A stretch of 55,879 nt of DNA, filler included, from Dugesia japonica (Eukaryota): the NCBI GenBank assembly GCA_001938525.1. It is 5 parts of 5 records of this genome, joined end to end, with 100 filler letters (N's around TTAATTAATTAA, not from the genome) between each part and the next. Parts side by side here need not be neighbours in the genome. Positions count along the whole stretch, not along the records: positions 28,645 to 40,433 come from MQRL01606323.1; 4 more parts are not named here. The stretch is one strand, 5' to 3'. Every line of letters begins with the position of its first letter. Positions within the stretch are counted from its first letter, which is position 1. Made by a program: the position numbers and the translations under genes. This document shows, piece after piece, positions 6,201-50,879 of this stretch. Below the pieces are notes generated by a model, which did no database searches, had not been told where the DNA came from, and was given only the letters and a program-made list of their open reading frames with translations.

Positions 6201-6239
6201 AGGTTTTGGGAAAATCTTATATCGTGTCGTTTATACTGT

Positions 6240-13009: not shown

Positions 13010-13157
13010 TTTCATAGTAGGTTGTTGTTGAATAGTTAAAATATCTTTTAAAGTTCTTGATTCAATTACTCTTGTAGTAAATAAATTATCATAATCATCT
13101 TGAGCTTTAATTAATTCTTTCTAAAGTTTTATTCTTTCTGTTATTTGTTCAGTGTCC
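13010..13157 (-). pseudogene. Family A conserved ORF, N-terminus (homolog of ORF at 19747)
   Basis: MDTEQITERIK..ELIKAQDDYDN..VIESR versus MNTKEVENRIKELKALIKGQEKYND..VIESR. Confidence 0.7.
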
Positions 13158-13756
13158 ATTTTTAAAGGGTTTTAAATACAAACCATCTCCTTTTACTTTA
13201 ACTTGTATTCCATTTTTAAAGTTTTTAGTAATCATTTTCAATTCTGAATTAGGTAAACTATTTTTAAAATATTTATGAATAGCAGAACCTTGATAAGGTT
13301 TTAAATATAATCCACTTCCAGTTTTATTTTCTTGTGCTTCTTCTTTTTTAATTTTATTTTCTAAATCCATTTTGTCACGAAGTTACCTTCGGTCACGAAT
13401 GTCAATGAGTTCCTTTTTCTGTAATTCAACTAATTCTGTTTCTTTTTGTTTTTAGATTGCATCTCTTGAATTACTAACAGTTGATGCTATTCCAGTCGCA
13501 ATTCCAGCTGATGAAGCTAAACCAGCAATTATAGCTGGTATTGCAGCTAGAAAAGCAAATCCCCCTTCATGTTTTTTCCTAGTTTCTTTTTTATTTCTTC
13601 TTTAACTTGTTTACCAATCCAATAGCTTTTACCATTAATCTTTACAGACTTACTTTTATTTGAATTTATCAAATCAATTAATTCTTGTTCTGTCATTGAA
13701 GACATTTTATTTACTTGTAATTTGAAAAAATAATTCAATTCCTCTTCTCCTTTCAA
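13149..13756 (-). pseudogene. Polinton pX-like precursor, family A copy 2
   Basis: MTEQELIDLINS.K.KSVKI, GG-FAFLAAIPAIIAGLASSAGIATGIASTV, GSGLYLKPYQGS, GDGLYLKPF; frameshifted and carrying a 27-bp insert. Confidence 0.8.
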
Positions 13757-15264
13757 TTTAAGAGGTAGGAAGATTTTAAAGTGGCGGGGGGATTTTTAAA
13801 AGAGGAGAAATCTTAGAGAGTCTTTTAAATTACTCATCTTACGTTTCGAATAAATGATCCATTAAAACTTCAGCTTCTCTATCTAAATAATATTAATTAT
13901 ACTGTTGGGCTAGAACGAGTATAGAATAGCTGTAACTCAAAAGAAAATGTAAAAAATTGAAATTTGAATCAATGGTTAAATAGAGAAACGAAGGAAACTA
14001 TAAATGTGAGAGAGAATGAAAGCCAACTGATGATGATCTGGGTTTCTACTCTTGATTTTCTTTTAATTCGAATGTTTAATGGTCGTAAGATTGTTTTATT
14101 TGATTAATATGTAACGTACACGTACTAGTATTAATTTTATATTAATTACATTATTTAATTTTATTGACTTGGTTATATTTTGATTTTTCATTAATATTTT
14201 AATTTGTTTTTGACTCTATTTAATGTAATTTGTTAATTTGGTAATTTGATGAAAATGCAAAGTATGCTATTAATTAGGACTCATTATGATGGAAACTATT
14301 ATAAGGATTTTAATGATATTTTAATTATGAAGGTTTTATTAATATTGACATCGAATAAAAATTTTCTAAATCATTAATTTGATTATTTAACTGCTATGGA
14401 ATAAGATTTATATCATTAATTATATATATTTTATTAATTGAACTTTAGTACGAGACTTTCATGATTTACGACATTGCTTTGATTTTAATTTTATATCGAA
14501 TTTAATAGTTAATGTTTTCGAATGAATATAACGTATTGGCACCTAAATTGATCACCGATTAAATGAATTAAATGGAATACTTCCTATCGAAAAGGAATTT
14601 TTGGATACAAGGTCTTGAGTATAACTTATAAGATATTTTGTTTATGAACTGGTATTAAATTTTGAGTTTCGATTTAGAAAGATTTGTTAAGGTACAAAGT
14701 TATGAATATTAACAATTTTAGTCAGGACCAGTTTATTAATAACTTTACTTAACTATTATTTTAATTATTATTTCATTATTATTAACTTGTCGATATTTCG
14801 AATAATTATTTATTTAATTTCGGTTATCTGGAATATTTGAATTATTGCTTAAAAAATTAAGTTATTGATACTTCGTATGATAGTTGTGGTTACATAGAAT
14901 GTTTATAGTAAACTTTTTCCTTTTAATTTGTTTGATAAAGAATGCATCTTATAATTTAATATTTTATTCACAATAGTTTGATGCTTATTTTTAATGATAA
15001 TTGTTTGGATCGAAATTTTAAATTGCAGTTTAAATGAATTACGTGACTCAAAATCAAGCCTAAAAATAATAAACGCATAGCGAAGGGGAAGTAGAATTTC
15101 CTGAGAACAATAAGCGATGAAGTTCTCACAGCTGAACTCTAACTCCTGTTTCGCTGGAATAGTAATAATTATATGAGAAATCGATTGTATAGTAAATGAA
15201 TTAAAAATCACTCGTGAACCAATGCAACTGATTATTATTTAAATATGCAATTGTTACGATTTAG

Positions 15265-16233: not shown

Positions 16234-16949
16234 CTTATAAAATACATACTACAGCTTAACAATAATTCATTTTGTTATTTAAAAAAAATTATTTTATATG
16301 TAAAATAAGTGTTTGCGTATGTATTTATTTATTATTTGACACGTTTTATTATCAAATTTGAAAAATTCTAATTATGAAATATATTATAATCATACACACA
16401 TACTCGTATCTCATTGGATACTTGACAAACTATGATAAAATAGTAATTATTTATCACAATTAAAAAAATATTAATTTAATTGATTGAATTTTGACGGAGC
16501 TAAAAAAGGAAATTAATAATTTTTTTATTTTTTAATATTAATTTTTTATTTTTAGATGAATAACAAATTGTATAAACAATGTGGAAGAAATTTCAATTCA
16601 TCTATGAAAATGTAAATTTATTATTATTAATAACTATTATTTAATTAAATTTCTTTAGAACTTTTTAACAATAGAATATAAATTATATGGAGACAAAGGA
16701 TCAAATGTAGATTCGCGTTAGTTTATTTTTTTGATTTTTTTATGAAAATAAAATAAAAGATTTTAAAATAATATTTTAAAAATATTGTAAGAAATAAAAG
16801 CTATTATTAAGAAGAAGATATGTTTTTTTCCACTTTGATTTATGATTAAAATTTCTATGCTTATGATTATTTAAAGAAAACATCTATGAATTTATTTAAA
16901 GAAAACAATATGCTTTATGAATATTTCAAAGACAACATCTATGCTTTTA

Positions 16950-17090
16950 CAAAAAGTTCCACACTAATGAAATTTTTTCTAAAAGGTTCCATTGTAATGA
17001 ATCTTTTTTGTAAAATGTTCCACTGTAATGAATCTTTTTATAAAAGTTTCACTATAATGAATTATTTTTTTAAAAATGATCTACACTTAT
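16950..17090. repeat. About 30-bp tandem array (AAAAGTTCCACTGTAATGAATCTTTTTT)
   Basis: 4-5 units; same unit at 45453-45600. Confidence 0.8.
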
Positions 17091-17340
17091 AAAATATAAA
17101 AAACATTATTATTGTAAAATTATTTATCATTTATAATATTTAAATGCTATTTATTTTAGGAGCGTGCTAACTATACAAAAACCATGAGACACAATGATGA
17201 TTGTCATAGTATTCTGGAAAAATACTATGGTCAATGGTTTCATGCCGTATGTCCTAATTGTAGGACATTAGGATAAGATAAATATCGAAATTTTTATAAT
17301 ACCCATAAGTACCACCTATCAGGGTTTACTAAAAAAACAA

Positions 17341-19184: not shown

Positions 19185-19720
19185 ATGATGAGTGTAACAA
19201 GTACAACGAATCCAACAAGTACAACGAGCGTAACAGAAGAAGAATTAGAGAAAATAATAAATTCAAGAAAATTTAAATCAGTGAAGATTGATGATAAAAA
19301 TTATTATATCAGTAAAAAAGTGAAAGATGAACTTAAAACAAAGAAATCAGAAGGCAGCAAAGCCCATAAAGAATAATTTGTTTTTCTAGCGGCAATCCTC
19401 GCTATCATAGGGGCTTTAGCCGGCACAGCGGAAATAGCCTCGGAATAGCATCAACAGTTATAAATTCAAGACAAGCGATAAAAGCACACAAAGAAATTGA
19501 ATTAATTGATAAAGCCCATAAAGGAGAAAGCAAAGCTCATAAAGGATCTGGTATTTATTTAACACCTTATCAAAGTTCAGCTATACATAAATATTTAAAG
19601 AATATCACTGATGATCCAAATTTTAAAGAATTAACAAAAAAATTTAAAGGTGAAGTTAAATTAGAAATAGAAGGAGATGGATTATATTTAAATCCTTACA
19701 ACAAAAATAATTTTAGAAAA
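19185..19720 (+). pseudogene. pX-like precursor, family A copy 3
   Basis: TEEELEKIINSRKFKSVKI, FLAAILAIIGALAGTA, GSGIYLTPYQSSAIHKY, GDGLYLNPY. Confidence 0.8.
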
Positions 19721-19746
19721 GTATCCTTATAAAAATTCTTAATGAA

Positions 19747-20620
19747 ATGAATACAAAAGAAGTAGAAAATAGAATTAAAGAATTGAAAGCATTAATTAAA
19801 GGACAAGAAAAATATAATGATTTTTTTACTGGAAATGTTATTGAATCTAGAGAATTACAAAGTGATTTATCTACTTTACAAAAACCAATTATTTCAGCAA
19901 TAGAATATAATAACCTAAATACTACGGAAAATATTTAACCGGAAACAGAAAATATTAAACTGGAAACAGATAAAAAAATCCATTATTAGATAGTAATAAA
20001 ATTAAAATAGATGTAACCCTTAAAGAAGAAAAATTTATCGAATTTTTATTAGATGATAATACAACATCATTTCATCTTAAGGATATGGTATTTAATGAAA
20101 ATAAAACATTATCACCAAGAATAACTCCCATAATAAGCATAAAAGATATTGGGAATGATAAAAAATTTACATTAAATTATAAAGAAAGTCAAGTGAATAT
20201 ATTTTTCTTTAATGTTGATGGGAAACCACATTTTTCAGTTAATGGAAAAATTTATATTTATTCAGAAAAATGTAAGGATATAATTATGGGAAATAATATA
20301 AAAATACGAGATGATGATGATACAAAAAGTTATGTTGAAATATATTTAAATGAGATAATAAAACATAAACCTGTTAATAATCAATAATATAATTTTTTTA
20401 AATCGAAATTAGTAAAAGGCCATAAAGGTAGAGCGAGAAGTTTACCAAAAAGTAAACAAATAAAAGAAGAAGGTATCAATCCTTTAAATTTATTTGAAGA
20501 GTTAACATTATTAATATCAGCAACAAAATTTGAACATGATAATGTAGATGAAGAAATAAAGAGTTTATGTAAAAAAATTAAAAACTATGGGTTTACTATC
20601 TTACATGATTTATGATAAAT
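19747..20620 (+). pseudogene. Family A conserved ORF of unknown function
   Basis: In-register ORF pieces 19747-19938 and 20085-20387, C-terminus NLFEELTLLISATKFEHDNV; homolog at 13010-13157. Confidence 0.6.
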
Positions 20621-20820
20621 ATAAAATTAAATATTTTAAATAAAAACCGCTCATGCATGAGCAACTTATTTTAGATTTTACATTTAGGGACTTAAAATTT
20701 AATATTTTAGATTTTACGGGTCCCTTTGGGCATTTTACATCTGTACACTTAACATTTAAGGACTTATACGGGTCCTTTTGGGTAAAGCTTACTACGTAAG
20801 CTAAAGTTTATTTATAAGAA

Positions 20821-21489
20821 ATGTCACATCAATTTTTAGTAGTTGGTAAAGAACAAGATTTAAAATTTCCTAAAGAATTAGATTCAGAATATAAACTTGG
20901 ATTGATTTGCTTTACATGTTAAAATATTATTTTTAACATTAATAATTTAAATAATAAATTTATCCATAATACTAAAGAAGAAAAGATTGAACCTGGAGCC
21001 TATGAAATAAACGAAATTTCAAGTAGATTAGAAAAATATGGAATAGAAGTTATAGCTGACACCTCAACAACAAAATGTAATTTAAAAACAAAAAACTTAT
21101 TAACTTTTGATGATAAATCTTTCTTTCATAAAATCTTATGTTTTAAAGTAAATATTTATCCACCAGGAAATTATTATTCAGATAATAAAATTGATATTTC
21201 AAATATTAACATGATAAATATTACATGCAATATTGTTAAAGTTAATTATGTAAAATCCTCAAATTCATATGACACTCAACAAATAAATTTATTATATTCA
21301 TTTCCAATTAATACGGTTCGTTTTGGATTTAAAATTATAGAAAGACCATCTGTAACAATTTATTCTAAAATTAATACAAAATATATTGATAGTTTAAAGT
21401 TTAACATTGTAGATGAAAACTTTAACACGATAGATTTTAAACAAGAGATGATTTCAATTTTGGTTCATTTAAGAAAATATAGACACTAA
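20821..21489 (+). pseudogene. Penton / minor capsid protein
   Basis: FPKELDSEYKLGLICF..NIIFNINNLNNKF, IEPGAYEI, INITCNIV, LLYSF, GFKIIERP, DENFNTIDFKQE; one stop. Confidence 0.88.
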
Positions 21490-21576
21490 TATTTTGCGCC
21501 CCGCGGGGCGCATGTTTTAGGTCCCTTTTGGTATTTAACACCTTACATGTCACATTTTATATTTTACACTTAAAAA

Positions 21577-22026
21577 ATGACCTCTTTAAGATTAAACAAG
21601 CCTGCTACGCTAGCATCATTTTTATTAATTGATTTATTAAAGACATTTGGAATTAACACAACAACAAATTTTGATTTATAGTCAATTGCTGACTTTTTAG
21701 AAATGGATTTAGAGATTTATATGAAAAATAAAATACCTAAAATCTTAAACAAAGGTAATTACATTTTTAATTATTAAAATACAAATCGAAAAGGATTTCA
21801 TTGGACAGCCTATGTCAAAGGCACATATTATTTTGATTCTTTTGGTTTAAAACGTTTTGATAAACTGTCTAGAGTTATCACTAAATATAATAAAATTCAA
21901 GTTCAACATTTCGATTTAAAAGTTTATGTGGCGTCTTGTGTATTTATTTTTTATATAAATTTAGAGATAAAACATTTGATGAAATAATAACTGAGATGAA
22001 AAAATTATATGATAATTTAATTATAG
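21577..22026 (+). pseudogene. Adenain-like cysteine protease
   Basis: GFHWTAY..YYFDSFG..YNKIQVQ..LCGVLCIYFL (His/Asp/Gln/Cys set). Confidence 0.9.
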
Positions 22027-22029
22027 AAA

Positions 22030-23190
22030 ATGAATAAGTTTGGTGAAAGTTTATTTGGTGTAAATAATTCACAATTAATTAAACATGTTGATGCTAAAAT
22101 TAGAATATCAAATGCGGAAAATGAAAATAAATATGTAANNNAAACAGGTGACACAATAACATCTTTAAAAATAAAAGATGGCCCTAAAGATTTAACAGAT
22201 GTAGTTAATTTAAAATATTTCAATAAGTTAAAAGAACAAGTTGAAAGGCATTAATTAATTTTCACAAAACATTTGAAAATTGATATTTACACATCTAATA
22301 AAATTCATTTACAATGTAGAGTAGATGAATTGAAAAAATTTTTTATTATTTAATTTAGAAAATAAAGATATTATTGTTGAACTTAAAAGTATAAATGATA
22401 AAATTAATAATCTAACAAAAACATGTAATTTAAAAGAAGTTGAAAAACGAGTATTATTATTAGAAAATAAAATTTATGGTTTAATCTCAAGTATTATAAC
22501 TGAAAAAAATAATAAACAAGAAAAAATTAAAGATATTAAATCACATCTTAAAAACCAAGAAAAAATAGATTATCCTTTTCTTTCTTTAGTTATTGAATTT
22601 GAAAATATAAAGAATGTTCTTCATGAATTAGATCTTGATTTAATTAATAGTTTAATGATAGAATATAAACAAAATAAAAAACCTCAAACATTAAATAGTT
22701 TAAGAAAAAGAATTTATAATTATTAACCATATAAAGACCCGATAGTTTTATTCCCTGAACTTTGTCAAAAACGAAGTATTGATGTAAATCCGATTACTGC
22801 ATTAGTTGTCTTAATAAAAATGATAAACTTCCATATGTAACATTTGAAAAATATAGAGATAATTATACTATAAAGAAATATGAAATTAAAAGAAAAGGAA
22901 GATGGGAAACCATAAATGAATTTTTATATTGTTATCTTGAAGAACCTTTAGAAATTAGTTTTACAGGAGAATTTCATTATTTTTAAAAATTTTTATTTTT
23001 AGGATATACTGCACTTAAATCTTTTGAAATTATTATATTAGTTGATAAAAGAAAAGTTATTATTCCTCAATCTTCTATAATTAGATATAAAAATAAATTC
23101 AAAATTCAATTAGTTAGTGCCGAAAATCATGCTTTACCAGTAAATCTTTTTGAAATGATTTTCCCTAAAAAATATTTACATTTCTAAAAT
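22030..23190 (+). pseudogene. Fibre/spike-like protein
   Basis: KYV..TGDTITSL..GPKDLTDVVNLKY neck motif, coiled coil, then beta-rich fragments; several stops. Confidence 0.5.
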
Positions 23191-23298
23191 GTTTGTTTCA
23201 TTTATAAAAATAATGCTTAATTATTATAATTTTACTTCTTTACAAAATGAGCTACTATTAAAAAAAATAAAAGTAGTTTAAATTTTATTTATAGAAAA

Positions 23299-23910
23299 AT
23301 GGAAAGTGAAAAAAGTATTTATCCTAGTTTAGATGAGTATACTATTTTAGATTTAAAAAATAAACTGTCAATGTCTAGAATTAGAGATTTTGAAAATGAT
23401 CTTTACTTTATAAACGATAAAATAAAACATTATAAAAAAATCATAGAATATGGGAAAAGATTGATTCATCAATAAAATATACACAAATATTTGTTAGTGC
23501 TGGCATTGGAATTGGAGGTGTAATTTTGATTACGCCAATTGGCGCCGCTGTTGCCACCATAGGCGTTTCGGTTATTACAGGCGCAATTTCAGTATTACCT
23601 ATAATCGGTACATTAAATTTGACATTAATAAAATCAAGAAAAGAAAGATATAAAAAATTAATTCAGAAACTTGAAGCTGTTAAAAATAAATTATTTTTAT
23701 TTCAACAGAAAGCTTTTAATGATGAAATTTTAACTGATGATGAATTAACAATAAGTAATAATATGGTAAATGAAGTTCATGAAATAATATCGGCAACAAA
23801 AAAACAAGAAAAAATAGTGATGATGTTAATTTAAAAATGTTAGTTGAAAATCAAACTAAAGTTATTAATGAAATGAAATCAAAATTAGGAATGTTAAATT
23901 ATACCAATAG
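23299..23910 (+). pseudogene. Polinton membrane protein with N-terminal YPxL motif
   Basis: MESEKSIYPSL..., two hydrophobic Gly/Ala-rich helices, then KAFNDEILTDDE; one frameshift. Confidence 0.6.
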
Positions 23911-23975
23911 AGATTAACCATGTTCCGACCAGAATAATTTTGTTCCAATGATTAAATTGTTTTTATAATAAAAGT

Positions 23976-24836
23976 ATGAATTATTCTAAATGGTGTAATA
24001 TAGGTCTTAAATATGATTACTTTAATCAACGAAAAAAAGTTAAAGCAGAAAATAAAATACTAACAGCAATACCAAGAGAATGTAAAAGAATAGTACCAAA
24101 AGAAGCTTCAACATCAAATTATATTGGTGAAACTATTGTAACAACTGAAACAGAATTTAATAAAATAAAAAAAATAATAAAAGAAAATGGAATGTAAGGT
24201 AAAATTAAAATAAGTTATTTACATGATAAGAATAATCCACCAACTTCACCAAGAAGAAAATTAATAATACCAAATGAAAATGAAATTCTTGTAAAAAATG
24301 AAGACCAATATATTAAACATCAGAAAACTTTAAAAGAAAATCATCTAGAAAAAAAATTATACATTTAAATATATTAAAGATAAAGAAAAAGAAAATGAAA
24401 TCAAAGCTATAAAAAAAGTTTTTTAAATTCACTACAAAATGAAAATAATTTATTAGCAATAACTAATTCTGAAAGTGATGATGATGATTATGATGAAGAG
24501 TTAAAAGAAATAAATTGTAATGCTAGAGAAACATATTTTCAATTAATGAAGTGTTATGTATTCACTTTAAATAATAGTGCTGTATTGGGTAGAATATTAG
24601 AAAAAATGAAAAGTAAATTTAAAACTAATAAAGAATTTGAAGATAATTTAAAAAATCTTCATATAAAATATAAAATAAATTATGTTAATAAAATAATAAA
24701 GTTTAATAAATTAGTAAAAGAATATCCACAAATTTTAAAATCGAATTGGCCATTTACTAAAATTCAAAATAATTATCCAGAAATAAAAAGTATTCTACCA
24801 AGTGAATTTCCTACTACACTAAAACAAATCATCTAA
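23976..24836 (+). pseudogene. Family A ORF of unknown function
   Basis: ORF pieces 23976-24197 and 24546-24836 with coding-like sequence between them. Confidence 0.45.
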
Positions 24837-25571
24837 CATTTCATCACTTTCTTTATTCAGGTAAAAATAATTATATTTAGTTTTCCAATGATAATTGACC
24901 TCATAATAATATTCTGATTTGTTAGTAAAAATATTAGAAAACAATTCATGATAAACATTATTCCTATCTGTTTTATTTAATTTAAAATAGATGTAACAAT
25001 TTGAATTGTTCCTTATAGAATTTTTATCCAGATAATAATATGTTTGGGAAATATAAATTACATTACAATTTGAATGTCTCCCACAGGTGAAATAACTTTT
25101 TTGAATTCCTTGATTCTTTTCATTAACTACATCATCGAATATTATTAAATTTTTCTTTTCTTTTGAAAGTCTATCACATGAAATTATTTCATTAGGTTTA
25201 TTACTTAATGTTACAATTATACTTCTAGGTTTTTTAATTAGTAATTTTTTCTCTAGATAATATTGTAAAACTTGATATGGTGTAATACAAATATTTGGAA
25301 CAATATTTAGATTTTCAAACATTAAGATAATTTCTTGTTTAGTTAAACCATTTTCAAAACCAACGTAAAGTAATTGAATTTCAAATTGATTGATTGTTGT
25401 TGAATAAAAAATTAAAACATCATTATCTAAAAATTCAGGTGTCAATAACATTTTCATTAATAAAGCAATTTTCCCACAACCTGAAGATCCTATCATTAAA
25501 AGTCTAAAATTATTTGTTAATACTTTATTATTAAAAGTTGTTATATTCTTATTCCAGATTAGATTTGGCAC
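24819..25571 (-). CDS. A32/FtsK-like genome packaging ATPase (family A)
   Basis: Walker A GSSGCGK, Walker B LIIFDD, GRHSNCNVIYISQTYY..SIRNN. Confidence 0.93.
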   Translation of the reverse strand: MPNLIWNKNITTFNNKVLTNNFRLLMIGSSGCGKIALLMKMLLTPEFLDNDVLIFYSTTINQFEIQLLYVGFENGLTKQEIILMFENLNIVPNICITPYQVLQYYLEKKLLIKKPRSIIVTLSNKPNEIISCDRLSKEKKNLIIFDDVVNEKNQGIQKSYFTCGRHSNCNVIYISQTYYYLDKNSIRNNSNCYIYFKLNKTDRNNVYHELFSNIFTNKSEYYYEVNYHWKTKYNYFYLNKESDEMLDDLF

Positions 25572-25709
25572 TTGCGAAGCATGGCCATTTTTTATTCTAA
25601 ATTTTTAAGATTTCACATTTTACATATTTTCCGAGACATGCATGCCTTTACATTTTACACTTTAATTAAATTGGATTAAATAAGCTTGCTATCGCAAGCA
25701 TTTTATAAT

Positions 25710-26480
25710 CATGATTTTTGGAATTCATTACTATAGAATCTTCATAACATTTTGTTGCCGTTTAAATTACTAATTTCAAATGTATAAGGTTTTCCATAAT
25801 ATATTTTTGTAATAATATAAATTCTTTTTGACCATTTAAATTTATAGCCTTTAGGAAATGTTTTTCCAATTTTAGTAATCCTAACACGATCTCTTATTTT
25901 AAATTTAAGTTTCTCAGGAAAAGTTTTTGGGATTTCTAATTTAATACTTTCTAGATTTATTGAAGCTTCTTGAGGTGTAACATTAATTGTTGAATGTATT
26001 GTGTTATTGTAATCATTTACAATTTGTTCTAGTAAATTTGAAGTAAAATTTTGATTCCCAACGGCAGTAAAATGTTTAAAGTGTTTATTTTTAAGTGTTC
26101 TGTTAAATCTTTCAATGACAACTGCTTTACTTTTATTTTCAGTTGAATACAAATAACATCATTATCTTTACAAAAATATTTAAATGTTTCATTATAAAAT
26201 TGTTTACCTTTATCTACCCATAATTTATTTGGTGTCCTAAAGCTTTTTTCTAGAATTCTTTCAAATGCTTTTGTTGTTGTTGGTCCAGTTTTATTTTTAG
26301 AAAGTTCAATAAAAGCAAATCTTGTGGATAAATCAATTACAGTTAAAATTCCATTTTTCCCTTTTCTTTCTATTCCTTGAAATATTAAATCTGCTGACCA
26401 AATATTATCTTTTTCATATACAATTACTTTTCTAAAATGTTTTTGTCTTCTATATTCTTTATGAAGTTCTTTACTTTCAA
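25710..26480 (-). pseudogene. Polinton rve integrase (family A)
   Basis: ELHK..FRKVIV..DNIWSADL..ILTVIDLSTRFAF..LWVDKGKQFYN..KAVVIERFNRTLK..YNNTIHSTI..FPKGY..WS. Confidence 0.93.
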
Positions 26481-27017
26481 TTTCACTCGGGTCATTTCAT
26501 CTCCAGATTCTTCTTCACCAATAGTACTTTTCTTATAAGGATCTTTTCTTGTCCCACCTCCACCAAACACTATTTTTCCTTTCATTGCTAATTTTACCAA
26601 AGCTCTTTGTAATTTTTCACTTGTGGTTGGATTTTGGATATTATTTAGATCATGTATTAAATTTACATCTGCAATATGTCGATCTCTAATATTTTCTGAA
26701 TGATAAGCTATGTCATGTCTAAATGCGGCATTATCAACTCTATTAATAGGTTCTTTGCCTGGATTTGGCTCTTGCATTTCATGTAATCTAATATCTAATC
26801 GTGTTCCAGGTCCAGTGTAATTATGTTTAAATAAATGTTTTTCACCTTGATACTTTTCCCAAGTAAATGGTTTTAATAATGCTGATGTTAATTTTAAATT
26901 TTTTAGGTCGCCTCCATATTATTTTACTTTGCTTACACACAAATCTAAATGTCGTGATTAATTTTTCTTTAAAATTATTTTACCACAATTTTCACATATA
27001 AACTTTTTTGTGGGCAT
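26424..27017 (-). pseudogene. Zinc finger plus parvovirus-type phospholipase A2 (PLA2X-like)
   Basis: CENC..RHLDLC, MGG, HNYTGPGTRL, PINRVDNAAFRHDIAY, RHIAD, VFGGG; one stop near the N-terminus. Confidence 0.9.
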
Positions 27018-27109
27018 TCATTTTTTTTTAAATTTAACATTTTACGGGTCCTTTTGGGTATTTTAAAAATGGAATTAAATTTAACACACGCTTGTTTAGC
27101 AACACATTT

Positions 27110-28167
27110 TTAAATATCCAATCCCCTTATATTTTCAATTATAAAAATTTTACTATTTTCTAATTTCATTTCAACATGTTTTTCTTCAAGTATACATCAA
27201 TAAATATTACCTTTAAAATCTGGATCTTTTGTTATATGAAGTTTGACATCAACATTATTAATATTCATTTTATTATCATGAGCACTTACATGAAAACAAA
27301 ATATTGAATATAAATTACCAAAATCTAAAAGTGATAATTGTGGTTCTGTTAAAAACTCATGACAACAGTTTATATAATTTTAATAAGGATAAATCATTTC
27401 ATTATTTTGCATATTAAATTTACATTCATTAATTGGGTAATAAGTATTGTTCAATTGTATCTGTATACTTTTAACATAATTGGTGGTGATTTTTTGTATG
27501 AATAGATTATTATTTTTTTCATATGGAATTTCTACATCTTTTAAGCAAATGAAAACATATCTAGGTTGATATGCTAGACTACTAATTTTTATTGAATAAT
27601 ATCCACCTGGATCTAAATTTGATTTAGCGGTTATTCTATTTAAGTATGAAACTTTTATTGGTTTATTTTTTGCTATTCTTTCTAATAAGAATAATTCTGT
27701 TTTTGGTAATAATCTAAATTCTGGAATATGAAATTCAAGGGTTAACACTTTTAATGTTGCTGTTGATGAGGCATCTCCATAAAATAATAGTTTACCATTC
27801 ATTTGTCTGTTACATGTAAACTCTATCATTGTATTGTATAAAAGTCAATTATAATTTGCCATAAAACCAAATAAGTTTCTCAATTGAAAGTATCCTTCTA
27901 ATTTCCTTGTGCTATAAAGTTTCTTTCTAATTTTATAACCAGGATTAGTTTTTATATCTCTATCATCTATATCAGGTATCCAACCTGACATTTGACTATA
28001 TTCTTTTTTCCATGTTTCTGTTGTTAATATTAAATTTAGCATCGTAAATATAACACCTTGATCATTTATTGTTTCTACATCTGTTGAACACAATGCTAAT
28101 CTCATGGATTTGAAGAAACTTGGAAACAAGTTTGTTTCTAATGTTATTTTATCTTTTCATGCTTCTG
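27110..28167 (-). pseudogene. Major capsid protein (family A), 5' end cut by a nested Polinton terminus
   Basis: Collinear with 28917-30247: ITLETN.FPSFF, VETINDQG, PRYVF, IQLNNTYYP, YSIFCFHVS. Confidence 0.85.
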
Positions 28168-28544
28168 AGTAGATAGATCCTAGCGCACTGGATCACCCCC
28201 TCCCCCCTCTCAAGGTCAAATTTTTTAAAAATCACTGATCTAGTATACTCGATTCTGATTGGTTGAGTCATTTCAAGGTTGATTTTTTTCAAGGTCAAAG
28301 TTATTCATTTAATATTTCAATGTCAAATTAATGTAGGTCAAGGTTAATTGAATGTAGGTCAAGGTAATATCCATAGCAACTATCGTCAAGGCAGATTTAA
28401 TATTTAAATTTCCCGCGCAATTTTAATATTTAAATTTCATGCGCAGATTTAATATTTAAATTTCCCGCGGAGATTTAATATTTAAATTTCCTGCGCAGAC
28501 TTACTATATAAATTTTTTAATGTTTCGAATTTTTTTTTTATTTT
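28168..28544 (+). mobile_element. Polinton-type terminal repeat inserted into the MCP gene
   Basis: Begins AGTAGATAGAT exactly where MCP homology stops; resembles the termini at 45091 and 47646; contains AAGGTCA motifs and a 26-bp tandem array (28391-28500). Confidence 0.75.
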
Positions 28545-28644
28545 NNNNNNNNNNNNNNNNNNNNNNNNNNNNNNNNNNNNNNNNNNNNTTAATTAATTAA
28601 NNNNNNNNNNNNNNNNNNNNNNNNNNNNNNNNNNNNNNNNNNNN
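28545..28644. other. Artificial contig linker
   Basis: N44-TTAATTAATTAA-N44. Confidence 0.95.
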
Positions 28645-28689
28645 TCCTTCAATGAGATTATATCGACACCTATAACACTCACAAGCAAA

Positions 28690-28866
28690 GTGTTGATAAA
28701 TCTCTTTGTAATATTTTTTCAAGTAAATGGTTTTAAAATTGCTGAAGTTAATTTAGAAGATTGTAAATCACCTCCAGTTTTCTTTATACATATTTTTAAA
28801 TGTCTAGCTTTATTTTTTCAAAGTAATATTTTGTTACAATTTTCACAAATACATTTATTATTCATT
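28690..28866 (-). pseudogene. N-terminus of the zinc finger-PLA2 gene, second copy
   Basis: MNNKCICENCNKILL..RHLKICIKKTGGDLQSSKLTSAILKPFT aligns with 26860-27017. Confidence 0.8.
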
Positions 28867-28916
28867 TTATTAAAAATCTAATTAGAGAATAAAGGACTAC
28901 TGCAGCGGTTAAAATA

Positions 28917-30247
28917 TTAACCTAAACTTTCTCCTCGTTTATTTTCAATCATTACAATTTTACTATTTGATAATTTCATTTCAATATGTTTTTCTTCTAA
29001 AATACACCAACATAAAGATCCTGTAAAATCACTATTTTTAGTTATATGTAACGTTATATCTACGGTATTTATATGTAATTTATCGTCTTGGGAATTAACA
29101 TCAAAACAAAAGATTGGATACAAATTACCAAACTCTTGTAAAGATAATTGTGGTTCAGTTAAAAAGTCTTTACAACAATTTAGATAATTTAAATATTGAA
29201 AAATCATTTTATTATTTTTAATATTAAATTTACATTCATTTATAGGATAATATGTATTGTTTAATTGTACTTAAATACTTTTAAGATAATGTTTTGTTTT
29301 AAATTTTTCTTTCTTTTCATTTTCAACAGTTTTACTAATTTGTTGAATAAATAAATTATTATTCTTTTGAAATGTAATTTCTGAATCTTTTATTCCAATA
29401 AATATATATCTTGGTTTAAATTTATAAGTTAAATTACTCAGTTTAACTGAATAATAATTTCCTGAATCTAAAGTTTTTTTTTAAGTTATTCTATTTAAAA
29501 ATGAAACTTGAATAGATTTATTTGTGTTAATTCTTTCCAAAAGAGTTACTTTCATTTTTGGAACTAATCTGCATTCTGCTATGTGTAGTTCTAGACTCAT
29601 TAATTTTAAAGTAGCAGTTGTACCTGAATTCCCATAAAGTATTAAATTATCATTCATTTGTCTATTACAAGTAAATTCAATCATTGTGTTATATAATAAT
29701 ATGTTGTAACATTGTAAAAAACCAAATAAATTTTTCAAAAGAAAATATCCCTTAAATTTCTTTTTGGAGTAAAGTTTATTTCGTTTATAAAAACCTAGAT
29801 TTGCATCAAGACCTTCTACATCAACATCTTCTTTATTTATATCTGGAATCTATCCTGATAATTCACCTTTTATCTTTTTATAAGTTGAACTAGTTGTTAT
29901 AAAAGTTAACATTGTTGAAGCTGTTCCAGGATCATTAATTACTTCTACACCTGAAGAACCTAAAGTTAATCTCATTGTTTTAAATAAACTTGGAAACCAA
30001 TTATTTTCTAAAGTTATTTTATCTTTATGAGCTTCGGCTGCACCAAATTCTAATTCAACTTTAAAATATAACATTGAATTACAAATGTCTAATGGATTTG
30101 AAGATTTTAAAGATTGAAAAGTTATATCACCAGAAGACATTAAATTATTAATTGTTCCAGTTGAAGGTGAAATTCTCAAAACATCATTTTTCAAATATAA
30201 ATGTTGAAAATTAATATTATTATCAATTATAATTTTGTTGTTTCCAT
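28917..30247 (-). pseudogene. Full-length major capsid protein pseudogene (family A, second copy)
   Basis: MENNKII..ISPSTGTINNLMSSGDITF..SMLYF..ITLENNWFPSLF..VEVINDPG..YPIFCFDVNSQ; a few stops. Confidence 0.88.
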
Positions 30248-30397
30248 TTTCTTTAATAATAAAATAACAAAATTAAAAATAGCAAAACTTCAACGTATGA
30301 GATGGTGATTTATTTATTATTTTTTATAGAACCGGTTCTTCACTATCTCATGCATCGTTAATCATCTAATTTACATGCAAATCAAACCATTAACCCA

Positions 30398-30531
30398 AGT
30401 AGTTGTAAAACTACGGTTTCCACGCGGTTTTTTGCCTTATGATATTTTACTATTTAATTTACGAAAGTAAACCGATGCATCNNNNNNNNNNNNNTACAAC
30501 CTTGCGTGGAAACCGTAGTTTTACATATACT
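30398..30531. mobile_element. Small inverted-repeat element with AGT...ACT ends (spans a gap, true size unknown)
   Basis: TGTAAAACTACGGTTTCCACGC / GCGTGGAAACCGTAGTTTTACA perfect 22-bp inverted repeat; similar end at about 40388-40412. Confidence 0.6.
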
Positions 30532-32058
30532 GATATGTGTGTTCGGGGAAATGAAGAGATTGACGTTTAAATGTTATTTAATAAATTTTGTTTAATAAAT
30601 GTAGTTTTTATGATAGTTATTTTTTTGTAAGATTAATTATACATAAGCAAATTATTTATTACCTTGATTATTTGTTACAAGTATTTCACGATTATTGTCG
30701 GAATAATTAATTTGAACGATTTCTATCATGTCATTTATATTCGAATCTAAATTCATTATTATTAATAATAAAAGGGGAAAAAATTTTTGTTTATAACTAA
30801 TATGTCATTGTTTTGCATGGTATTTGTTGAATTTGACTACATATTGTCTCTGTTTATTTTGTCTTTGAACTGTATTTCTTTGTTGAGCTTGCACCTGAAT
30901 TGTTCTTTGTTAATAATGCATTTGTGTTGCATTTCTTATTTCAAAGTATAAATGAATATATTTGGTACTAAATAGTACCCATACGTTATGAATATATAAT
31001 GTTTTATAGATAATAAAAAACTAATTGTAAGTAAACTAATAATATACGAATATGTAGTTTATTTACATCAGGCGAATACCATTTATTTTCGCCTGAAGGA
31101 CGAAAATACGCGCCGGCAGGCTTGAAAATATTTTTTTAATAATAGGTGCCCCTCATATATATATTTTATTTTGTGTCATATGAAGGGAGGAAGGTTAATA
31201 TTTCAAAAAGAAATAATTAAATGTTACAGAATTATTACATTAAGAAAAAAAACTGAACGAGGTATATATATATATATATACTCAATTAATCAATAGTATA
31301 TATTTTCTCAGTTACTAGTTATTAGTATTTATAAAAATAAAAGTCATAATAATAATAATAATAAAATTAACTAAAAAGCAAACTCTATTTAAAATTAATA
31401 ATATCCATCAAATTAATAAAATAGAAAACCCTAAGTTAAAAAAAAACTCAAATAAAAATTAAACTNTATTAAATAACTACTAAATTTTAAAAATTACTTC
31501 AAAAAAAACTCAATTAAATAATAATAATCAACAAAGTAAATAACAAAAATAAAACACAATCTTGAAAATAAGATTTATTTACAAATATTGATGAGCCTCT
31601 CTAGTAGAGCGTATCTGCATATATTGCATTCGCAATGCGCATGAAGATACATCTCTTTGTAGTATTGACTAGTATTGTTTCATAATCTTCTTTATTTATG
31701 ACCTTTTTCTGACGAAATAAAACTATTGCGATAATATCTAGAAATCATGAATAATTAAAAAAAATAATAATAAATAAATAAATATTACTCTTTTCATTAA
31801 TCAGATCCTCCTGGCTATTTGATTCCGCTGATTCTTCACATGTCTTTCGAATATTTTCTACTTGAATTGGATACATATTTTTTTTAATTAAATAAACCAC
31901 TGATTAAAATGAAATATGTAATGTGTTATATACAATTCTCTGTTTAACACAAATCGACCAATTGAAATCGACCAATGAAAAACAAGTAATAATCAAACAA
32001 GGAAAAGCCTTGCTATACTTGCATTCATATTGCAACCATGTACATTCATGTTGTGAAA

Positions 32059-32495
32059 TTAAACAATTAAATTATATAAATCAGAAATTATATTATCTAC
32101 ATATCCTTGATAGTATAAAGTCTTTATACCGAGTATTACAAATTTTCCTGAGGAAAATACGTTTAGATATACAGGATCATACTTTGTTAGTCGTAATGCA
32201 GGAAACAATTATGGTTCAAACCAACATTTTGTTATTTTTACTAATTTATACAAATTGATTACTTGCCCAAAATTGATTACAATTGTTAATGATTGAAACG
32301 AATATCTTTTATATCATACTGTAACTTTTCCATTTTCAACGGTTGTTTACATTCCTTTATTCGAAAATTTCCTGATTTAAAGAATATAAATGTATATTTT
32401 TCACTTTTTTCCACATATTAAGAAGGTTTACCGATAGGAAACTTCATTTTGACTGTTACATCTTGTGACACTTTGTAATTAATATTAACTAACAT
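32059..32495 (-). pseudogene. Compact TATA-binding-protein-like gene next to the Polinton family B ATPase
   Basis: MLVNINYK...KYTFIFFKSGNFRIKECK...QSLTIVINFGQVINLYKL..WFEP*LFPALRLTKYDPVYLNVFSSGKFVILGIK; matches the two TBP repeats (LIFSSGKMVCTGAK; YEPELFPGL; LIFVSGKVVLTGAK); 2 stops and 1 frameshift. Confidence 0.8.
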
Positions 32496-32499
32496 TATT

Positions 32500-32715
32500 A
32501 ATAAAGAAAAGGACTTTAATAAATTATTTACAAAAATAAGCAGACATTGTAATGTGACTACTATATTCATTACTCAAAATTTATTCCATCAAGAAGTCAT
32601 AGGACACGTAATTTAAATGAACAATACTTGTTCTGTTTAAAAATCTAAGAGATCAAACAATTGTTGATTTTCTAGCAAGACAGGCTTATTCTAATAATAG
32701 ACAATTTCTTATTGA
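32500..32715 (+). pseudogene. Packaging ATPase fragment (family B copy 1, N-terminus deleted)
   Basis: KEKDFNKLFTKISRHCNVTTIFITQNLF; close match to 39230-39445. Confidence 0.85.
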
Positions 32716-33108: not shown

Positions 33109-33425
33109 ATGAAATTACAACGAAATATTTCATCTTTTACATCATTAATTAAATCTTCAAAATCTGCGAGAATGCAAATTTTGAAATCATTTCCAACGTT
33201 TGTTATGGATTATTTAATTGAAACTCTTATAAATATTGTTCGTGGAAATGTAAATGTGAGTAATGCTAGAAAGGAAGTATTGAAAAAACATAAAAGAACA
33301 CTATTAACACTTATAAATACAAAAAATAGAAAATTGATGTAATACGAGATAATCAAGGAGGTGATTTTATTGCAGCATTACTACCAATTGCATTAGCAGC
33401 ACTAGGATTAACTCATTTCAAATAA
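33109..33425 (+). pseudogene. Maverick PW-like core protein (family B copy 1)
   Basis: R..ILK..LIE..INIVRGNV..LKKHK..L..QGGDFIAALLPIALAALG. Confidence 0.75.
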
Positions 33426-33479: not shown

Positions 33480-34307
33480 ATACGTTTTGTATTGATGACT
33501 TATGGTAAATGGATTTGATGGAGATGATCCCGTTTTCAAAAATAAATAAAAGATACAAGTATATTTTAACAATTATTGATGTATTCAGTCAATTTGCAAG
33601 AGCCTTTCCGAATGAATCAAAATCTGCTAATGATATGGAACCGGCAATTAAATCAATGTTCAAAGATGGACATCCAGATAATTTACAAACAGATTAAGGT
33701 AAGGAGTTTTACAACTCTAAAGTCAAAAATCTTTTATCATATCTATCCATAAAGCGGCACATGTTGANAGATTTAATCGAACATTAAGAGATGCTTTGAA
33801 AAAGTACTTTGTGCATACTGGTAATAAAACCAGGATAAATGTGTTTTCAAAATTGATTTATAGTTATAATCATTGTAGTTATAAAGGTTCAAATAGAGCA
33901 AGACCGGCTGATGTAAGTTCAAACAATGAACTAAAATTGTGGCTATCGCGTGATTAAAGTAAAGTAAATAAAAACCAAAATATAAAGTCAGTGACCATGT
34001 TAGAATCTTAAAATTAAGTCCATCTCCATTCATTAAAATGTTTGATAGTAATTGGAGTGATGAAGTATTTCAAATAACGAAAATCAATACTAAACAAAAT
34101 CCAGTCATGTATGTAATTAAAGATTATGAGAATAATATCATACAAGGAACGTTTTATGAGCATGAATTACAAGTCATTCCATCTCCTACTATATTTAGAT
34201 TCGAAAAAATAATAAAATCGAAAGGAACAAAGAAGAATAAATAATATTATGTAAAATGGCATGGATATCAAAACCTTACTTGGATATTAGCATCACAGTT
34301 AGTTAAT
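33480..34307 (+). pseudogene. rve integrase with C-terminal chromodomain (family B)
   Basis: MDLMEM..YKYILTIIDVFS..LQTD*GKEFYN..RFNRTL..NWSDEVF..GTFYEHELQ..YYVKWHGY..TW. Confidence 0.92.
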
Positions 34308-34308: not shown

Positions 34309-34690
34309 ATGAACAACGTGAATAATTTCTATACACTTTTAACTAGTAATAGCTGTCCTCTTATTCATCCGAATAATAATGCTAGTAAATTCATTGTTGA
34401 GCTTCAAAATTCGATTTATATGGATGGTAGTTGGGAAGTAGAATTGTTGAATTTTACGCTTGTATATCAAACATTTCCATTATATAGCAAGTCTAAAATG
34501 CAATACATGTCTACACGAAATTTATTAAATGAAATAACTATTAAAATTTATCACAAAAACAATCCTTAAGTGTAAGTAAAAATGAAAATAATAATGTCTA
34601 TATAATGTCTATTTAGTGGTTATTTAACTATTAAATGTGAATATCCATATTTTGCCGTATTTGAAAATGAAATAATTACCTTGAAATGAA
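34309..34690 (+). pseudogene. Minor capsid protein, N-terminal part (family B)
   Basis: FYTLLTSNS..HPNNNASKFIVELQNSIYMDGSWEV, the typical Maverick minor capsid start. Confidence 0.8.
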
Positions 34691-34699: not shown

Positions 34700-34933
34700 T
34701 TGAAATCTAATGCATTGGCAGAATTTGGTGATGTAGTGTCTTCGTTACCTAGTGGAGTAACTAATATGATTACTAAAGTAGCAGACATGTTACCATTCAG
34801 TATAACAAATAGAATTCCACCGGAAATAAGTAATATGATAACAAAAAACAGCAAAACATTCAAAAAAAAGCGTAAAAAAATCAAAACCAGCAGGTATAAA
34901 CAAACGAATGAAAGGACATGGAACAAATTTTGA
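34700..34933 (+). pseudogene. Small basic core-protein-like ORF upstream of MCP
   Basis: Lys/Arg-rich C-terminus (KKKRKKIK); position matches Maverick core genes. Confidence 0.35.
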
Positions 34934-36155
34934 AAATGATTTGCGGTAAAACTGAGTTATGTATTTTTGATCGTCTATCACCTCAAGCAGTAATTGAAAA
35001 TGCTGCATTTGAAGATTTGTTTCCAATGAATTCAATTTCTGAACTAAAAAGCGATGTAGAATTTTTTATAAATGGATCACAAACTGAATATTTAGATTTG
35101 AATGATACTTTATTGTATATTAAACTAAAGGTAGTTAATAAGGCAGGCAAAGATTTGACTGACGCTCATGATGCAGTTTCTAGTAACTATATGTTACATA
35201 CACTCTTTAAGGATGTAATTCTTTCATTTAATAATTACAAAATTGAAGGTGGAAATGGAACCTTTATTCAAAAAGCATTAATTAAAACTATATTGAATTT
35301 TAATGGCGATAGTAAGAATATTTGTCTTACATCAATGGAATATGGGTAAGAAGAAAATAGAAAAGCTTCTATTAAAAATCTAAACCATTGTCTCTATGTG
35401 GTTCATTGCAATTAGATTTTATGGATCAANNGAAATATCTTATTCCTGGTGTCAATGTTCACATTCGAATGAAAAGAGCAACTTCTAACATTTGTTCGGA
35501 ATCTGCAGTCAAGGAACCTACATATGTATTGTTAGATGCAAAATTAATGGTCAGACGTGAACGCGTTGAACCTTCAGTATTGGCTGGTCATTAATTGGGG
35601 TTAAATAAGAAAAATGCAATTGATCCGATAAGAAAGAAGGAAATTGTTGCGTTTGAAAGTAGTAAAGATAGTACATCATTTTATAAGGAGTAAATCTTTG
35701 GTGATCGTCGTTAACCCAACTTTCTTTTAATTGCATTTCAAAATGGAGGTCAATATAATGGTAATATTAAAACCTGTACTTCAATATTTTAACATTTATA
35801 TGCCACTTCCATAAATTTATCGAAAAACATTAATTATCGAGAGACATATATTCAAGATTTTGAAAACGACGATTATAGTACAACATATATGCAAAGCATT
35901 GTTGGAAATATGGGATATTTGGATAAGAATATGAATTGTGGAATAACATTTGAGAAATTTAAAAGCAAATATCCGTTTTTTACATTTGTACTTGCTCCAT
36001 ATTTTGATATTAATCAGAGTCAATTGCCTCAACAGGAAAATTTGAGATAAGATATAAAGTTTGCTAAATATTTGACTGCGCCAGCATATGTTATAATATA
36101 TGGAGTATTTGAAAGCAAAATTCATCTAAATGCTAATAGAACAGTACTAGTGTAA
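34918..36155 (+). pseudogene. Major capsid protein, vertebrate-Maverick type (family B)
   Basis: ELCIFD..PQAVIE..P..VEFFINGSQTEYLDLNDTLLYIKLKV..LHTLF..LQLDFMDQ.KYLIPGV..FFTFVLAP. Confidence 0.92.
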
Positions 36156-36229: not shown

Positions 36230-36540
36230 TATTAGTTCTTTTCGAATTAATCAAATCGGATCAAAATTGTTGGGGTGTATCCATTAGACAAGCCACCATA
36301 CTTTCCAGTTAATAAAGCCTTAATCGCAAATACTGATACATCAAATCTTGTTGGAAAACATTGGATAGCAATTTATCATAAGACTGCAATTATTTCAGTT
36401 TTTAATCCCTTGGATTTTATTATTCACATATATTGGTCTCANNNNNNNNNNNNNNNNNNNNNNNNNNNNNNNNNNNNNNNNNNNNNNNNNNNNNNNNNNN
36501 NNNNNNNNNNNNNNNNNNNNNTGTCTATTGTGGCTTAAAA
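36230..36540 (+). pseudogene. Cysteine protease fragment (family B)
   Basis: GVYPLDK..IANTDTSNLVGKHWIAIY..FNPL. Confidence 0.85.
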
Positions 36541-50477: not shown

Positions 50478-50856
50478 TATTAGTTAAATTTAAAGTTTCC
50501 ATAAATTGTTCATTGATTATTACAAGTCTTTTCTTAAAAATAAAAATATCAAATAACAATTCACAAATTTCAAATAAATAATCTGAAAAATCTTAATAAA
50601 ATATTTTTCAAAAATATTGGTTTTTTAAATTCCAAAATAATTATTTTTAAACCTCATTTTAGAAAATAATCTTTAAAATTTTATAATTTAACAACATGTA
50701 AAATTTTATCTTTGTTTTACATATATATTTATTTATTTTTCAACCTTACAATTTTTCAAATTTTATATTTTAAAATTTTCAAAAAAACCAATCTTAATAT
50801 TAAATATATAAATTAAAAAATCTCAGACATCCGAAATTCATGAATCGATACTCACA
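50478..50856 (-). repeat. 3' LTR
   Basis: Direct repeat of 54362-54761; preceded on the minus strand by PPT AAAGAGGGGGA. Confidence 0.92.
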
Positions 50857-50879
50857 TCCCCCTCTTTAAAATTTTTTTT

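What the first reader, a model, noticed from the sequence alone, without database searches (positions are those of the whole stretch)
32059..32495. Polinton-linked TATA-binding-protein-like gene missed by the ORF track
Seen: joining across two stops and one frameshift gives an intronless protein of about 145 aa with both TBP saddle repeats (IFFKSGNFRI.CK; FEP(E)LFPALRL; VFSSGKFVILGIK) and a shortened first repeat. It sits head-to-head with the family B packaging ATPase, and the same N-terminus (MLVNINY, ATG at 38831, minus) precedes the second ATPase copy, so it travels with the element. Known: the Polinton core is pPolB, integrase, ATPase, protease and capsids; TBP homologs are known in large NCLDV viruses, and I do not know of TBP as a described Polinton gene. 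Inference: this endogenous virus lineage encodes its own basal transcription factor, to redirect host Pol II to viral promoters or to act as a TBP decoy.
Basis: partly seen in the sequence, partly recalled or inferred. Interest (0 to 1): 0.88.

Follow-up and report, generated by a model that had tools for sequence, protein, structure and literature searches.

The report
Polinton's own rewired TATA-binding protein
This is a broken copy of a gene from a virus-like transposon (Polinton) for a shrunken TATA-binding protein with an altered DNA-reading face; intact relatives sit in many such elements and likely switch on the capsid and packaging genes through a matching non-standard TATA box.

Summary
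Confirmed. 32059-32495 (minus) is a decayed TBP-family gene inside a Polinton/adintovirus. Intact 144-152 aa relatives are 64-77% identical, and one models as a full TBP saddle (pLDDT 95; Z 13 to yeast and human TBP). Relatives lie beside core Polinton genes in 26 of 32 contigs of 3 kb or more, form one clade apart from cellular TBPs (about 22% identity) and show purifying selection (median dN/dS 0.24), so this is not a host retrocopy. The family keeps three of four intercalating Phe and the acidic TFIIB stirrup, loses most of helix H2, and has fixed changes on the DNA face. New here: ATAAAC lies within 70 nt before 66 of 78 virion-module genes (shuffled 6), mostly 30-45 nt up. The box is absent before all 51 TBP genes, which have host-like TATA/initiator elements. 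A Polinton with a canonical-faced TBP lacks it. Likely mechanism: an early viral TBP reads a late box and recruits host TFIIB/Pol II; binding is untested and no TBP-less control was obtained. A TBP label appears in a 2021 MELD-virus figure legend. This scan reported the same system on other genomes.

The parts
32059..32495 (-). Decayed gene for a short-form Polinton TBP: two in-frame stops, one frame change, a two-codon gap, and three further departures from residues nearly invariant in the family
32500..32715 (+). Middle fragment of the packaging ATPase, joined directly to the TBP start (promoter and ATPase 5' part deleted)
   Evidence: read ends pile up at 32499-32503
33109..33342 (+). Small conserved virion-module gene (putative core protein; label inferred), copy 1
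33482..34304 (+). Integrase, broken
34315..34545 (+). Start of a putative penton/minor capsid gene (label inferred from gene order)
34895..34901 (+). TATAAAC box, 41 nt before the major capsid ATG
34936..36152 (+). Putative major capsid protein, broken (50-54% identical to L012; label inferred, only a weak Capsid_N hit in a relative)
36266..36421 (+). Adenain-type protease fragment
37138..38785 (+). Protein-primed PolB fragments, partly duplicated
38796..38831 (-). First ~12 codons of a second TBP copy, cut off by the PolB fragment
38832..38955 (.). Divergent intergenic region: TATATATA about 37 nt and TCATT 9 nt before the TBP ATG (minus); TATAAAC at 38923, 33 nt before the ATPase ATG (plus)
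38956..39577 (+). Packaging ATPase, copy 2 (71-74% identical to L012), broken
39566..39572 (+). TATAAAC box, 33 nt before a short lysine-rich ORF
39797..39803 (+). TATAAAC box, 40 nt before the small conserved gene, copy 2 (39837-40154)

Best explanation
The stretch is a decayed copy of a Polinton/adintovirus gene for a small TBP-fold protein that likely acts as the element's own early-to-late switch, predicted to be made from a host-type promoter and then to bind the (T/C)ATAAAC box in front of the virion genes and recruit host TFIIB and RNA polymerase II. Shown: homology and predicted fold, element linkage, purifying selection in relatives, the residue changes, and the two promoter classes as sequence patterns. 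Inferred: DNA binding, TFIIB contact, timing, and escape from TFIIA/NC2 through loss of helix H2. This copy cannot make the protein.
For: Fold: the model of intact relative P0003 has mean pLDDT 95.3 and aligns 147-148 residues to yeast and human TBP, Z 13.0-13.2, rmsd 2.7-2.9, against 6.8 for the first non-TBP row. Linkage: a core Polinton gene in 37 of 80 loci and in 26 of 32 of 3 kb or more; L085, found by its integrase alone, also carries the family TBP. TBP distances track ATPase distances (rho 0.82, 21 loci, 0 of 999 permutations). One clade, 99/97. Median dN/dS 0.236 over 83 pairs with dS<1.5. Residues (yeast numbering; 108 short / 30 long sequences): kept F116 108/30, F190 107/29, F207 108/30, E188 108/30, E186 104/22, N69 106/27; changed F99P 107/28, V122R 107/30, T124M 108/30, L205N 108/30, V161T 95/27, and I194R 107 and V203C 108 in the short form. 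Positions 194, 203 and 205 are the ones that give yeast TBPm3 an altered specificity (PMC1636458). Positions 122, 124, 161 and 205 are also changed in KSHV ORF24 (PMC12529657 Table 1). Box: ATAAAC in 66 of 78 upstream windows of six gene classes (shuffled 6.2; reverse strand 0); YATAAAC in 0 of 51 TBP windows. TBP genes carry TATAWAD in 23 of 50 (shuffled 4.2) and TCAYT/TCATA in 36 of 50 (6.2). L089, a Polinton whose TBP keeps F99, V122, T124, N159, V161 and I194, has the box within 70 nt of 0 of 11 starts.
Against: No binding, TFIIB-contact or timing data exist. No Polinton lacking a TBP was obtained as a control (searches found none), so the box may be read by another factor; the contrast rests on one element (L089). 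L085 has the box although its TBP differs at positions 69, 122 and 124, so the residue-to-box link is not one-to-one. The box is scarce before pX (1 of 6), protease (1 of 5) and integrase (5 of 11, at 53-62 nt). The six classes were chosen after looking, the loci are related, and the shuffle is a simple two-letter-block shuffle. An exact box also lies 39 nt before an ORF start of the other Polinton type in the window, where no TBP was found. RNA reads from related copies lean to the same strand over both the TBP and the oppositely oriented ATPase, so they do not show a dedicated TBP message.
Confidence: 0.65

Rival explanations
1. The box is a promoter read by host TBP/TRF or by another viral protein, and the viral TBP is a decoy that ties up TFIIB or dampens host transcription.
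For: TATAAAC is one letter from a canonical TATA box. The TFIIB stirrup is the best-kept surface while one intercalating Phe is lost. Some loci carry other candidate DNA binders (C2H2 finger, KilA-N).
Against: The DNA-face changes are nearly invariant rather than drifting, across sequences down to about 27% identity. The element's TBP genes use ordinary TATA boxes and never this one (letter after TATAAA is C in 42 of 47 virion cases and 0 of 16 TBP cases). The element with a canonical-faced TBP uses other boxes.
Confidence: 0.17
2. The protein binds and bends element DNA for replication, integration or packaging, or serves a helper virus's polymerase, rather than host Pol II transcription.
For: The short form has lost nine residues of the first repeat and most of H2. 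Replication-initiator and poxvirus factors share the fold.
Against: The acidic TFIIB stirrup is kept. The box sits at TATA-like spacing before start codons, on the coding strand only. No RNA polymerase gene was seen in the long loci inspected.
Confidence: 0.1
3. The gene is real but the box is a poly(A) or termination signal of the upstream gene, or a by-product of coding sequence, and has nothing to do with the TBP.
For: TATAAA and CATAAA are known poly(A)-signal variants (recalled). Many boxes lie in the end of the upstream ORF, nine of them overlapping its stop codon.
Against: AATAAA is not enriched (14 against 14.0). Spacing is tight to the next ATG (sd 5.0, within an imposed 25-60 nt window) and loose to the previous stop (sd 201); without that window 56 of 81 distances are 30-44 nt. 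The box occurs in divergent intergenic regions with no upstream same-strand gene (window 38923; L049).
Confidence: 0.06
4. A host TBP retrocopy or passenger that landed in the element by chance.
For: The gene has no introns and this copy is broken.
Against: About 22% identity to cellular TBP against 61-79% to element-type relatives; own clade; repeated linkage; purifying selection.
Confidence: 0.01

Closest known systems
Cellular TBP (Pfam PF00352; yeast, human, plant, archaeal)
   Same: Full two-repeat saddle in the model; three intercalating Phe, N69, P191 and the acidic stirrup kept.
   Different: About 22% identity; F99 lost; polar or bulky residues at 71, 122, 124, 159, 161, 194, 203, 205; first repeat 9 residues and H2 region 13 residues shorter in the short form; no N-terminal extension.
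Beta/gammaherpesvirus vTBP (KSHV ORF24; EBV BcRF1 and HCMV UL87 recalled) with the TATTWAA late box (PMC12529657)
   Same: Viral TBP mimic with a polar DNA face changed at some of the same positions (122, 124, 161, 205); variant box before structural genes; host-like promoters on early genes.
   Different: ORF24 is a 752-aa multi-domain protein in a six-protein complex, keeps all four Phe, lacks the TFIIB acids and binds Pol II directly. The Polinton protein is a bare ~150-aa saddle that keeps the acids, so it is predicted to use host TFIIB. Most likely convergent.
'TBP' label in MELD viruses with adintovirus-like PolB (Starrett et al. 2021, PMC8502044, Fig. 5 legend)
   Same: A TBP-like gene in a Polinton-class genome was annotated once.
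   Different: Only a legend abbreviation, in the section on non-animal datasets; the figure could not be seen, so element and family are unknown. No family, residue or promoter analysis in the sections read, and no TBP among the labels of supplementary Fig. S2.
NCLDV and mirusvirus TBPs; poxvirus TBP-fold factors
   Same: Viral TBP-fold proteins found by structure search (7amv and 8p0j).
   Different: NCLDVs mostly encode their own RNA polymerase (recalled); the viral-contig TBPs tested fall outside this clade.
Second Polinton TBP type (L089 here; TATAAGA box in scan note e1-8577431)
   Same: Polinton with its own TBP gene (Pfam 124.7 bits).
   Different: 185 aa, canonical DNA face, outside the family in the tree, TATAAG rather than YATAAAC before 3 of 11 starts.

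Membership tests
TBP superfamily (PF00352) | Profile score above the curated cut-off | tested here: met
   Window C-piece 31.7 bits; relatives 47-57 bits; cut-off 22.9
TBP superfamily (PF00352) | Two-repeat saddle fold | tested here: met
   Model of P0003, residues 1-150 on yeast TBP 66-240, Z 13.2, rmsd 2.7; a prediction
Canonical TATA-binding TBP | Four intercalating Phe | tested here: not met
   F99 replaced in 107 of 108 short and 28 of 30 long members; the other three kept
Canonical TATA-binding TBP | Hydrophobic DNA face with the two Asn | tested here: not met
   N69 kept; N159, V122, T124, V161, L205 changed
Canonical TATA-binding TBP | Acidic C-terminal stirrup for TFIIB | tested here: met
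   E186 104 of 108, E188 108 of 108; the contact itself is not tested
Canonical TATA-binding TBP | Helix H2 (TFIIA and NC2 contact, PMC2577341) | tested here: not met
   No helix of 4 or more residues there in the short-form model; present in the long form, H63-74; spacer 19 against 32 residues
Canonical TATA-binding TBP | Binds and bends TATA DNA, supports initiation | not testable with these tools
   Needs biochemistry
Herpesvirus vTBP (ORF24 type) | Large protein with Pol II-binding N-terminal domain and DNA-binding C-terminal domain | tested here: not met
   Family members are about 145-170 aa
Herpesvirus vTBP (ORF24 type) | Variant box before structural genes, host-like promoter on early genes | tested here: met
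   Sequence pattern only; timing not tested
Polinton/adintovirus element | pPolB, integrase, A32-type ATPase, adenain protease | tested here: met
   Pfam on relatives, matched to the window by tblastn; rve and DNA_pol_B_2 hits in the window
Polinton/adintovirus element | Double jelly-roll major capsid and penton | tested here: inconclusive
   Only a weak Capsid_N hit (E 0.007) in one relative, none for the penton candidates; labels rest on size and gene order
Polinton/adintovirus element | Terminal inverted repeats and target-site duplication | tested here: inconclusive
   No long inverted pair flanking 32-40 kb among the 25 of 34 pairs shown; the copy is rearranged
TRF2/TBPL1 | Grouping with animal TRF2 | not tested
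   No TRF2 sequence was fetched

The most novel reading that the evidence does not exclude
A lineage of animal Polintons/adintoviruses runs a one-protein late-transcription system: a minimal TBP stripped of the host regulators' docking helix reads its own (T/C)ATAAAC box and plugs into host TFIIB, while other Polinton lineages pair different TBPs with different boxes. That would show these elements are autonomous nuclear viruses with a timed gene cascade, and give a natural orthogonal TBP-promoter pair.
Probability: 0.5. Interest if true: 0.9.

Novelty: new variant of a known kind. Interest (0 to 1): 0.76.

Why it matters
How Polintons, which have no RNA polymerase, switch on their capsid genes is not settled (my reading; 10 library searches found no promoter described for animal Polintons). 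A paired factor and box makes this directly testable with one 150-aa protein and a 7-bp site. It would be an independent solution, much simpler than the six-protein herpesvirus one, to hijacking Pol II, and a natural experiment on which TBP surfaces are dispensable.

Tried and rejected
No whole genome is held, so copy number and intact copies in the host genome are unknown. Viral-contig scans found no family member: nothing, four unrelated TBPs. Scans for TBP-independent controls in viral contigs found nothing. The long-form alignment was too divergent for a pattern scan. The run search listed no RNA holder among indexed runs, and the best DNA holder has 0.30 of the words, so organism A need not be the window's source. 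Transcript starts in the divergent promoter remain unexamined. The ESM Atlas returned only TBP clusters, recognition 2057, below its threshold; the exonuclease-like neighbour could not be looked up there and has no Pfam hit. No TFIIB-like neighbour was detected by Pfam in the 37 and 11 ORFs scanned. The origin of the family is not resolved: the outgroup is not one side of a branch, and no TRF2 or full animal TBP was included. Three picked loci (L031, L032, L049) were left out of the tree for lack of an intact ORF of 130 aa; the L048 row is a partly out-of-frame ORF. Window-wide counts of the box (15 plus, 10 minus) are no more than AT-rich DNA gives by a hand estimate; only positions are informative. 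No complex prediction was run: no host TFIIB was at hand. Searches of earlier notes by sequence and place found nothing, nor did a search for the ATAAAC box.

Full report
OBSERVATION. Six-frame translation shows the quoted motifs on the minus strand between ATG 32495 and the stop at 32059-32061. The gene is in two frames, each with one internal stop. The C-terminal piece passes the Pfam TBP cut-off (31.7 against 22.9 bits), and all 35 PDB sequences it matches at E<=1 are TBPs or TBP fusions. The N-terminal piece has no TBP hit but is 59% identical to an intact relative; the C-terminal piece is 77% identical. The copy also has a two-codon gap and departs from family-invariant residues at three more sites, as expected of neutral decay.

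SURROUNDINGS. The window is AT-rich eukaryotic DNA with Ig-domain and TRAF/MATH exons and an LTR retrotransposon; an animal host is inferred. No genome is held. From 32.5 to 40.2 kb lie ATPase, a small conserved gene, integrase, penton-like, capsid-like, protease and pPolB pieces, then a second TBP start, ATPase and small gene. In copy 1 the TBP start abuts ATPase residue 93, so the promoter is deleted; RNA reads of related copies stop fitting at 32499-32503. Copy 2 keeps the 124-nt divergent region but only about 12 TBP codons.

FAMILY. A 70-aa query found 4 intact proteins of 144-152 aa among 22 candidates. Their profile found 889 proteins among 1758 candidates; the best 120 are mostly 144-165 aa. 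A 108-sequence profile gave 57 representatives at E<=1e-30 and 772 at 1e-10, the latter including cellular TBPs. A metagenome scan gave 85 hits, 80 kept; four of these (L077-L080) are a different TBP type but stay in the counts. A core Polinton marker is present in 37 of 80 loci and in 26 of 32 of 3 kb or more; the six long ones without carry neighbours that lie beside core genes elsewhere. Markers came from the loci and were checked by Pfam: ATPase, integrase, protease, pPolB and PLA2 pass, capsid is weak, penton has no hit. L012, L013, L055 and L059 are near-complete with open frames. Of 11 loci found by integrase alone, the two long Polintons both carry a TBP: L085 of this family, L089 of another type.

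EVOLUTION. Among L001-L076, 64 TBP ORFs are intact at 130 aa or more. Of 256 measurable pairs, 83 with dS<1.5 have median dN/dS 0.236 (maximum 1.14, a pair with two synonymous changes); pairs are not independent. In a 69-row tree the 51 family rows form one clade (99/97) and the window's nearest kin nest among Polinton-context loci; in a 37-row tree support is 100/99 and L089 lies outside. TBP distances follow ATPase (rho 0.82, 21 loci), integrase (0.82, 12) and capsid (0.68, 8 loci, 30 of 999 permutations), largely through one deep split. The donor is unresolved.

STRUCTURE. The model of P0003 has pLDDT 95.3 and matches TBPs over its whole length (Foldseek E 1e-9; Z 13, rmsd 2.7, 148 residues); viral TBP-fold proteins follow. 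A long form of about 167 aa keeps helix H2; the short form, to which the window gene belongs, has lost it and nine residues of the first repeat. H2 contacts TFIIA and NC2 (PMC2577341, passages). Yeast numbering was set through an Arabidopsis TBP chain and agrees with the letters in Table 1 of PMC12529657. Kept: N69, F116, F190, P191, F207 and the stirrup glutamates (186 and 188 here; that paper writes E184 and E188). Changed almost without exception: F99, V122, T124, N159, V161, L205, and in the short form V71, I194 and V203. The last repeat's 194/203/205 trio is the altered-specificity trio of yeast TBPm3 (PMC1636458, passages). KSHV ORF24 is polar at 122, 124, 161 and 205 but keeps four Phe and lacks the TFIIB acids (passages and sections 4 and 15).

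PROMOTER PATTERN. In 187 de-duplicated 70-nt upstream windows, YATAAAC stands before ATPase 18 of 19, small gene 15 of 15, penton-like 8 of 12, capsid-like 6 of 9, exonuclease-like 10 of 14, PLA2 8 of 9, pX 1 of 6, integrase 5 of 11, protease 1 of 5, pPolB 1 of 3, TBP 0 of 51, and five other neighbour classes 4 of 33. For the first six classes, picked, ATAAAC is in 66 of 78 (shuffled 6.2), never on the reverse strand; AATAAA is at background. TBP genes instead have TATAWAD (23 of 50; shuffled 4.2) and an initiator-like TCAYT/TCATA (36 of 50; 6.2) ('initiator-like' is recalled). The window shows both classes back to back in 38832-38955, and boxes 33-41 nt before four starts; four other starts of the element lack an exact box. 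Against a tidy code: L085's TBP differs at 69, 122 and 124 yet the box is there, one exact box precedes an ORF of the window's other Polinton type where no TBP was found, and no TBP-less control was obtained.

EXPRESSION. Four RNA runs (three studies) laid 9, 502, 48 and 72 reads, nearly all under 95% alike, so they come from related copies. In the deepest run 54 of 55 and 16 of 16 reads differ from the window at the two stop codons, and 15 reads at a depth of 31 differ in length at the frame change, so unbroken relatives probably exist in that organism. The strand lean is the same over TBP and ATPase and no DNA control was laid, so this is not evidence of a regulated TBP message.

MECHANISM. 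Most likely (0.65): host TFIID/Pol II transcribes the TBP gene early; the protein binds YATAAAC through its polar face, bends DNA with three Phe, docks host TFIIB on the stirrup and drives the virion module, out of reach of H2-binding regulators. Every step after the sequence patterns is inferred. That the gene is an element-borne, selected TBP-fold protein is near certain.

LITERATURE. Ten searches (seven aimed at Polintons with TBP or promoters) found one mention: the label 'TBP' in figure legends of Starrett et al. (PMC8502044: passages, sections 8 and 10, first part of the supplement; preprint 10.1101/697771: passages). The figure, the slide files and the cut part of the supplement could not be seen and may name the element. 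PMC10675990 mentions TBP in mirusvirus-like elements (one passage). Other papers were seen as listings only, and subscription journals are not covered. This scan holds 61 notes in at least 6 genomes with the same words, several reaching the same reading; my reading was noted before that search, and those notes are not independent support.

VERDICT. Real; a new variant of a known kind (viral TBP mimic), with a concrete and testable promoter pairing.

Noticed in passing
window 19200-30800: A second, different Polinton type: A32 ATPase, integrase, PLA2-like gene and two tandem double-jelly-roll capsid genes about 70% alike; no TBP detected.
   Followed up: partly
window 5600-7300 and 13100-13800: Inverted, diverged relatives (68-74%) of parts of the 19-22 kb element, and pPolB scraps at 1186-1431, 44692-44976 and 47727-47918: a cluster of decayed Polintons.
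   Followed up: no
window 50478-54760: LTR retrotransposon with RT/RNase H and terminal repeats 89-95% alike; an older one at about 2200-5000.
   Followed up: no
window 42262-42669 and 49060-49539: Host exons with Ig and TRAF/MATH domains.
   Followed up: no
window 16943-17105 and 45414-45604: The same 31-nt minisatellite at two places 28 kb apart.
   Followed up: no
L089:11568-12122: A Polinton with a canonical-faced 185-aa TBP, TATAAG boxes, and two flanking ORFs of unknown function that look alike.
   Followed up: partly
L012:9591-10052, L041:5870-6352 and relatives: An acidic-motif, exonuclease-like gene with no Pfam hit in 22 of 80 loci, often directly next to the TBP gene.
   Followed up: partly
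L012:225-719, L017:4008-4316, L024:1918-3327, L059:7145-8002, L061:4091-4558: Accessory genes in TBP-bearing loci: E2 ubiquitin-conjugating enzyme, dual-specificity phosphatase, LRR protein, KilA-N, C2H2 finger.
   Followed up: no
L085, L086, L089 and others: Polinton contigs filed inside bacterial genome bins, probably mis-binned eukaryotic virus DNA.
   Followed up: no
c2 and c19 gene classes (e.g. L009, L017): Upstream windows look like AT-rich introns ending in AG, so some neighbour genes may be spliced and their starts mis-called.
   Followed up: no
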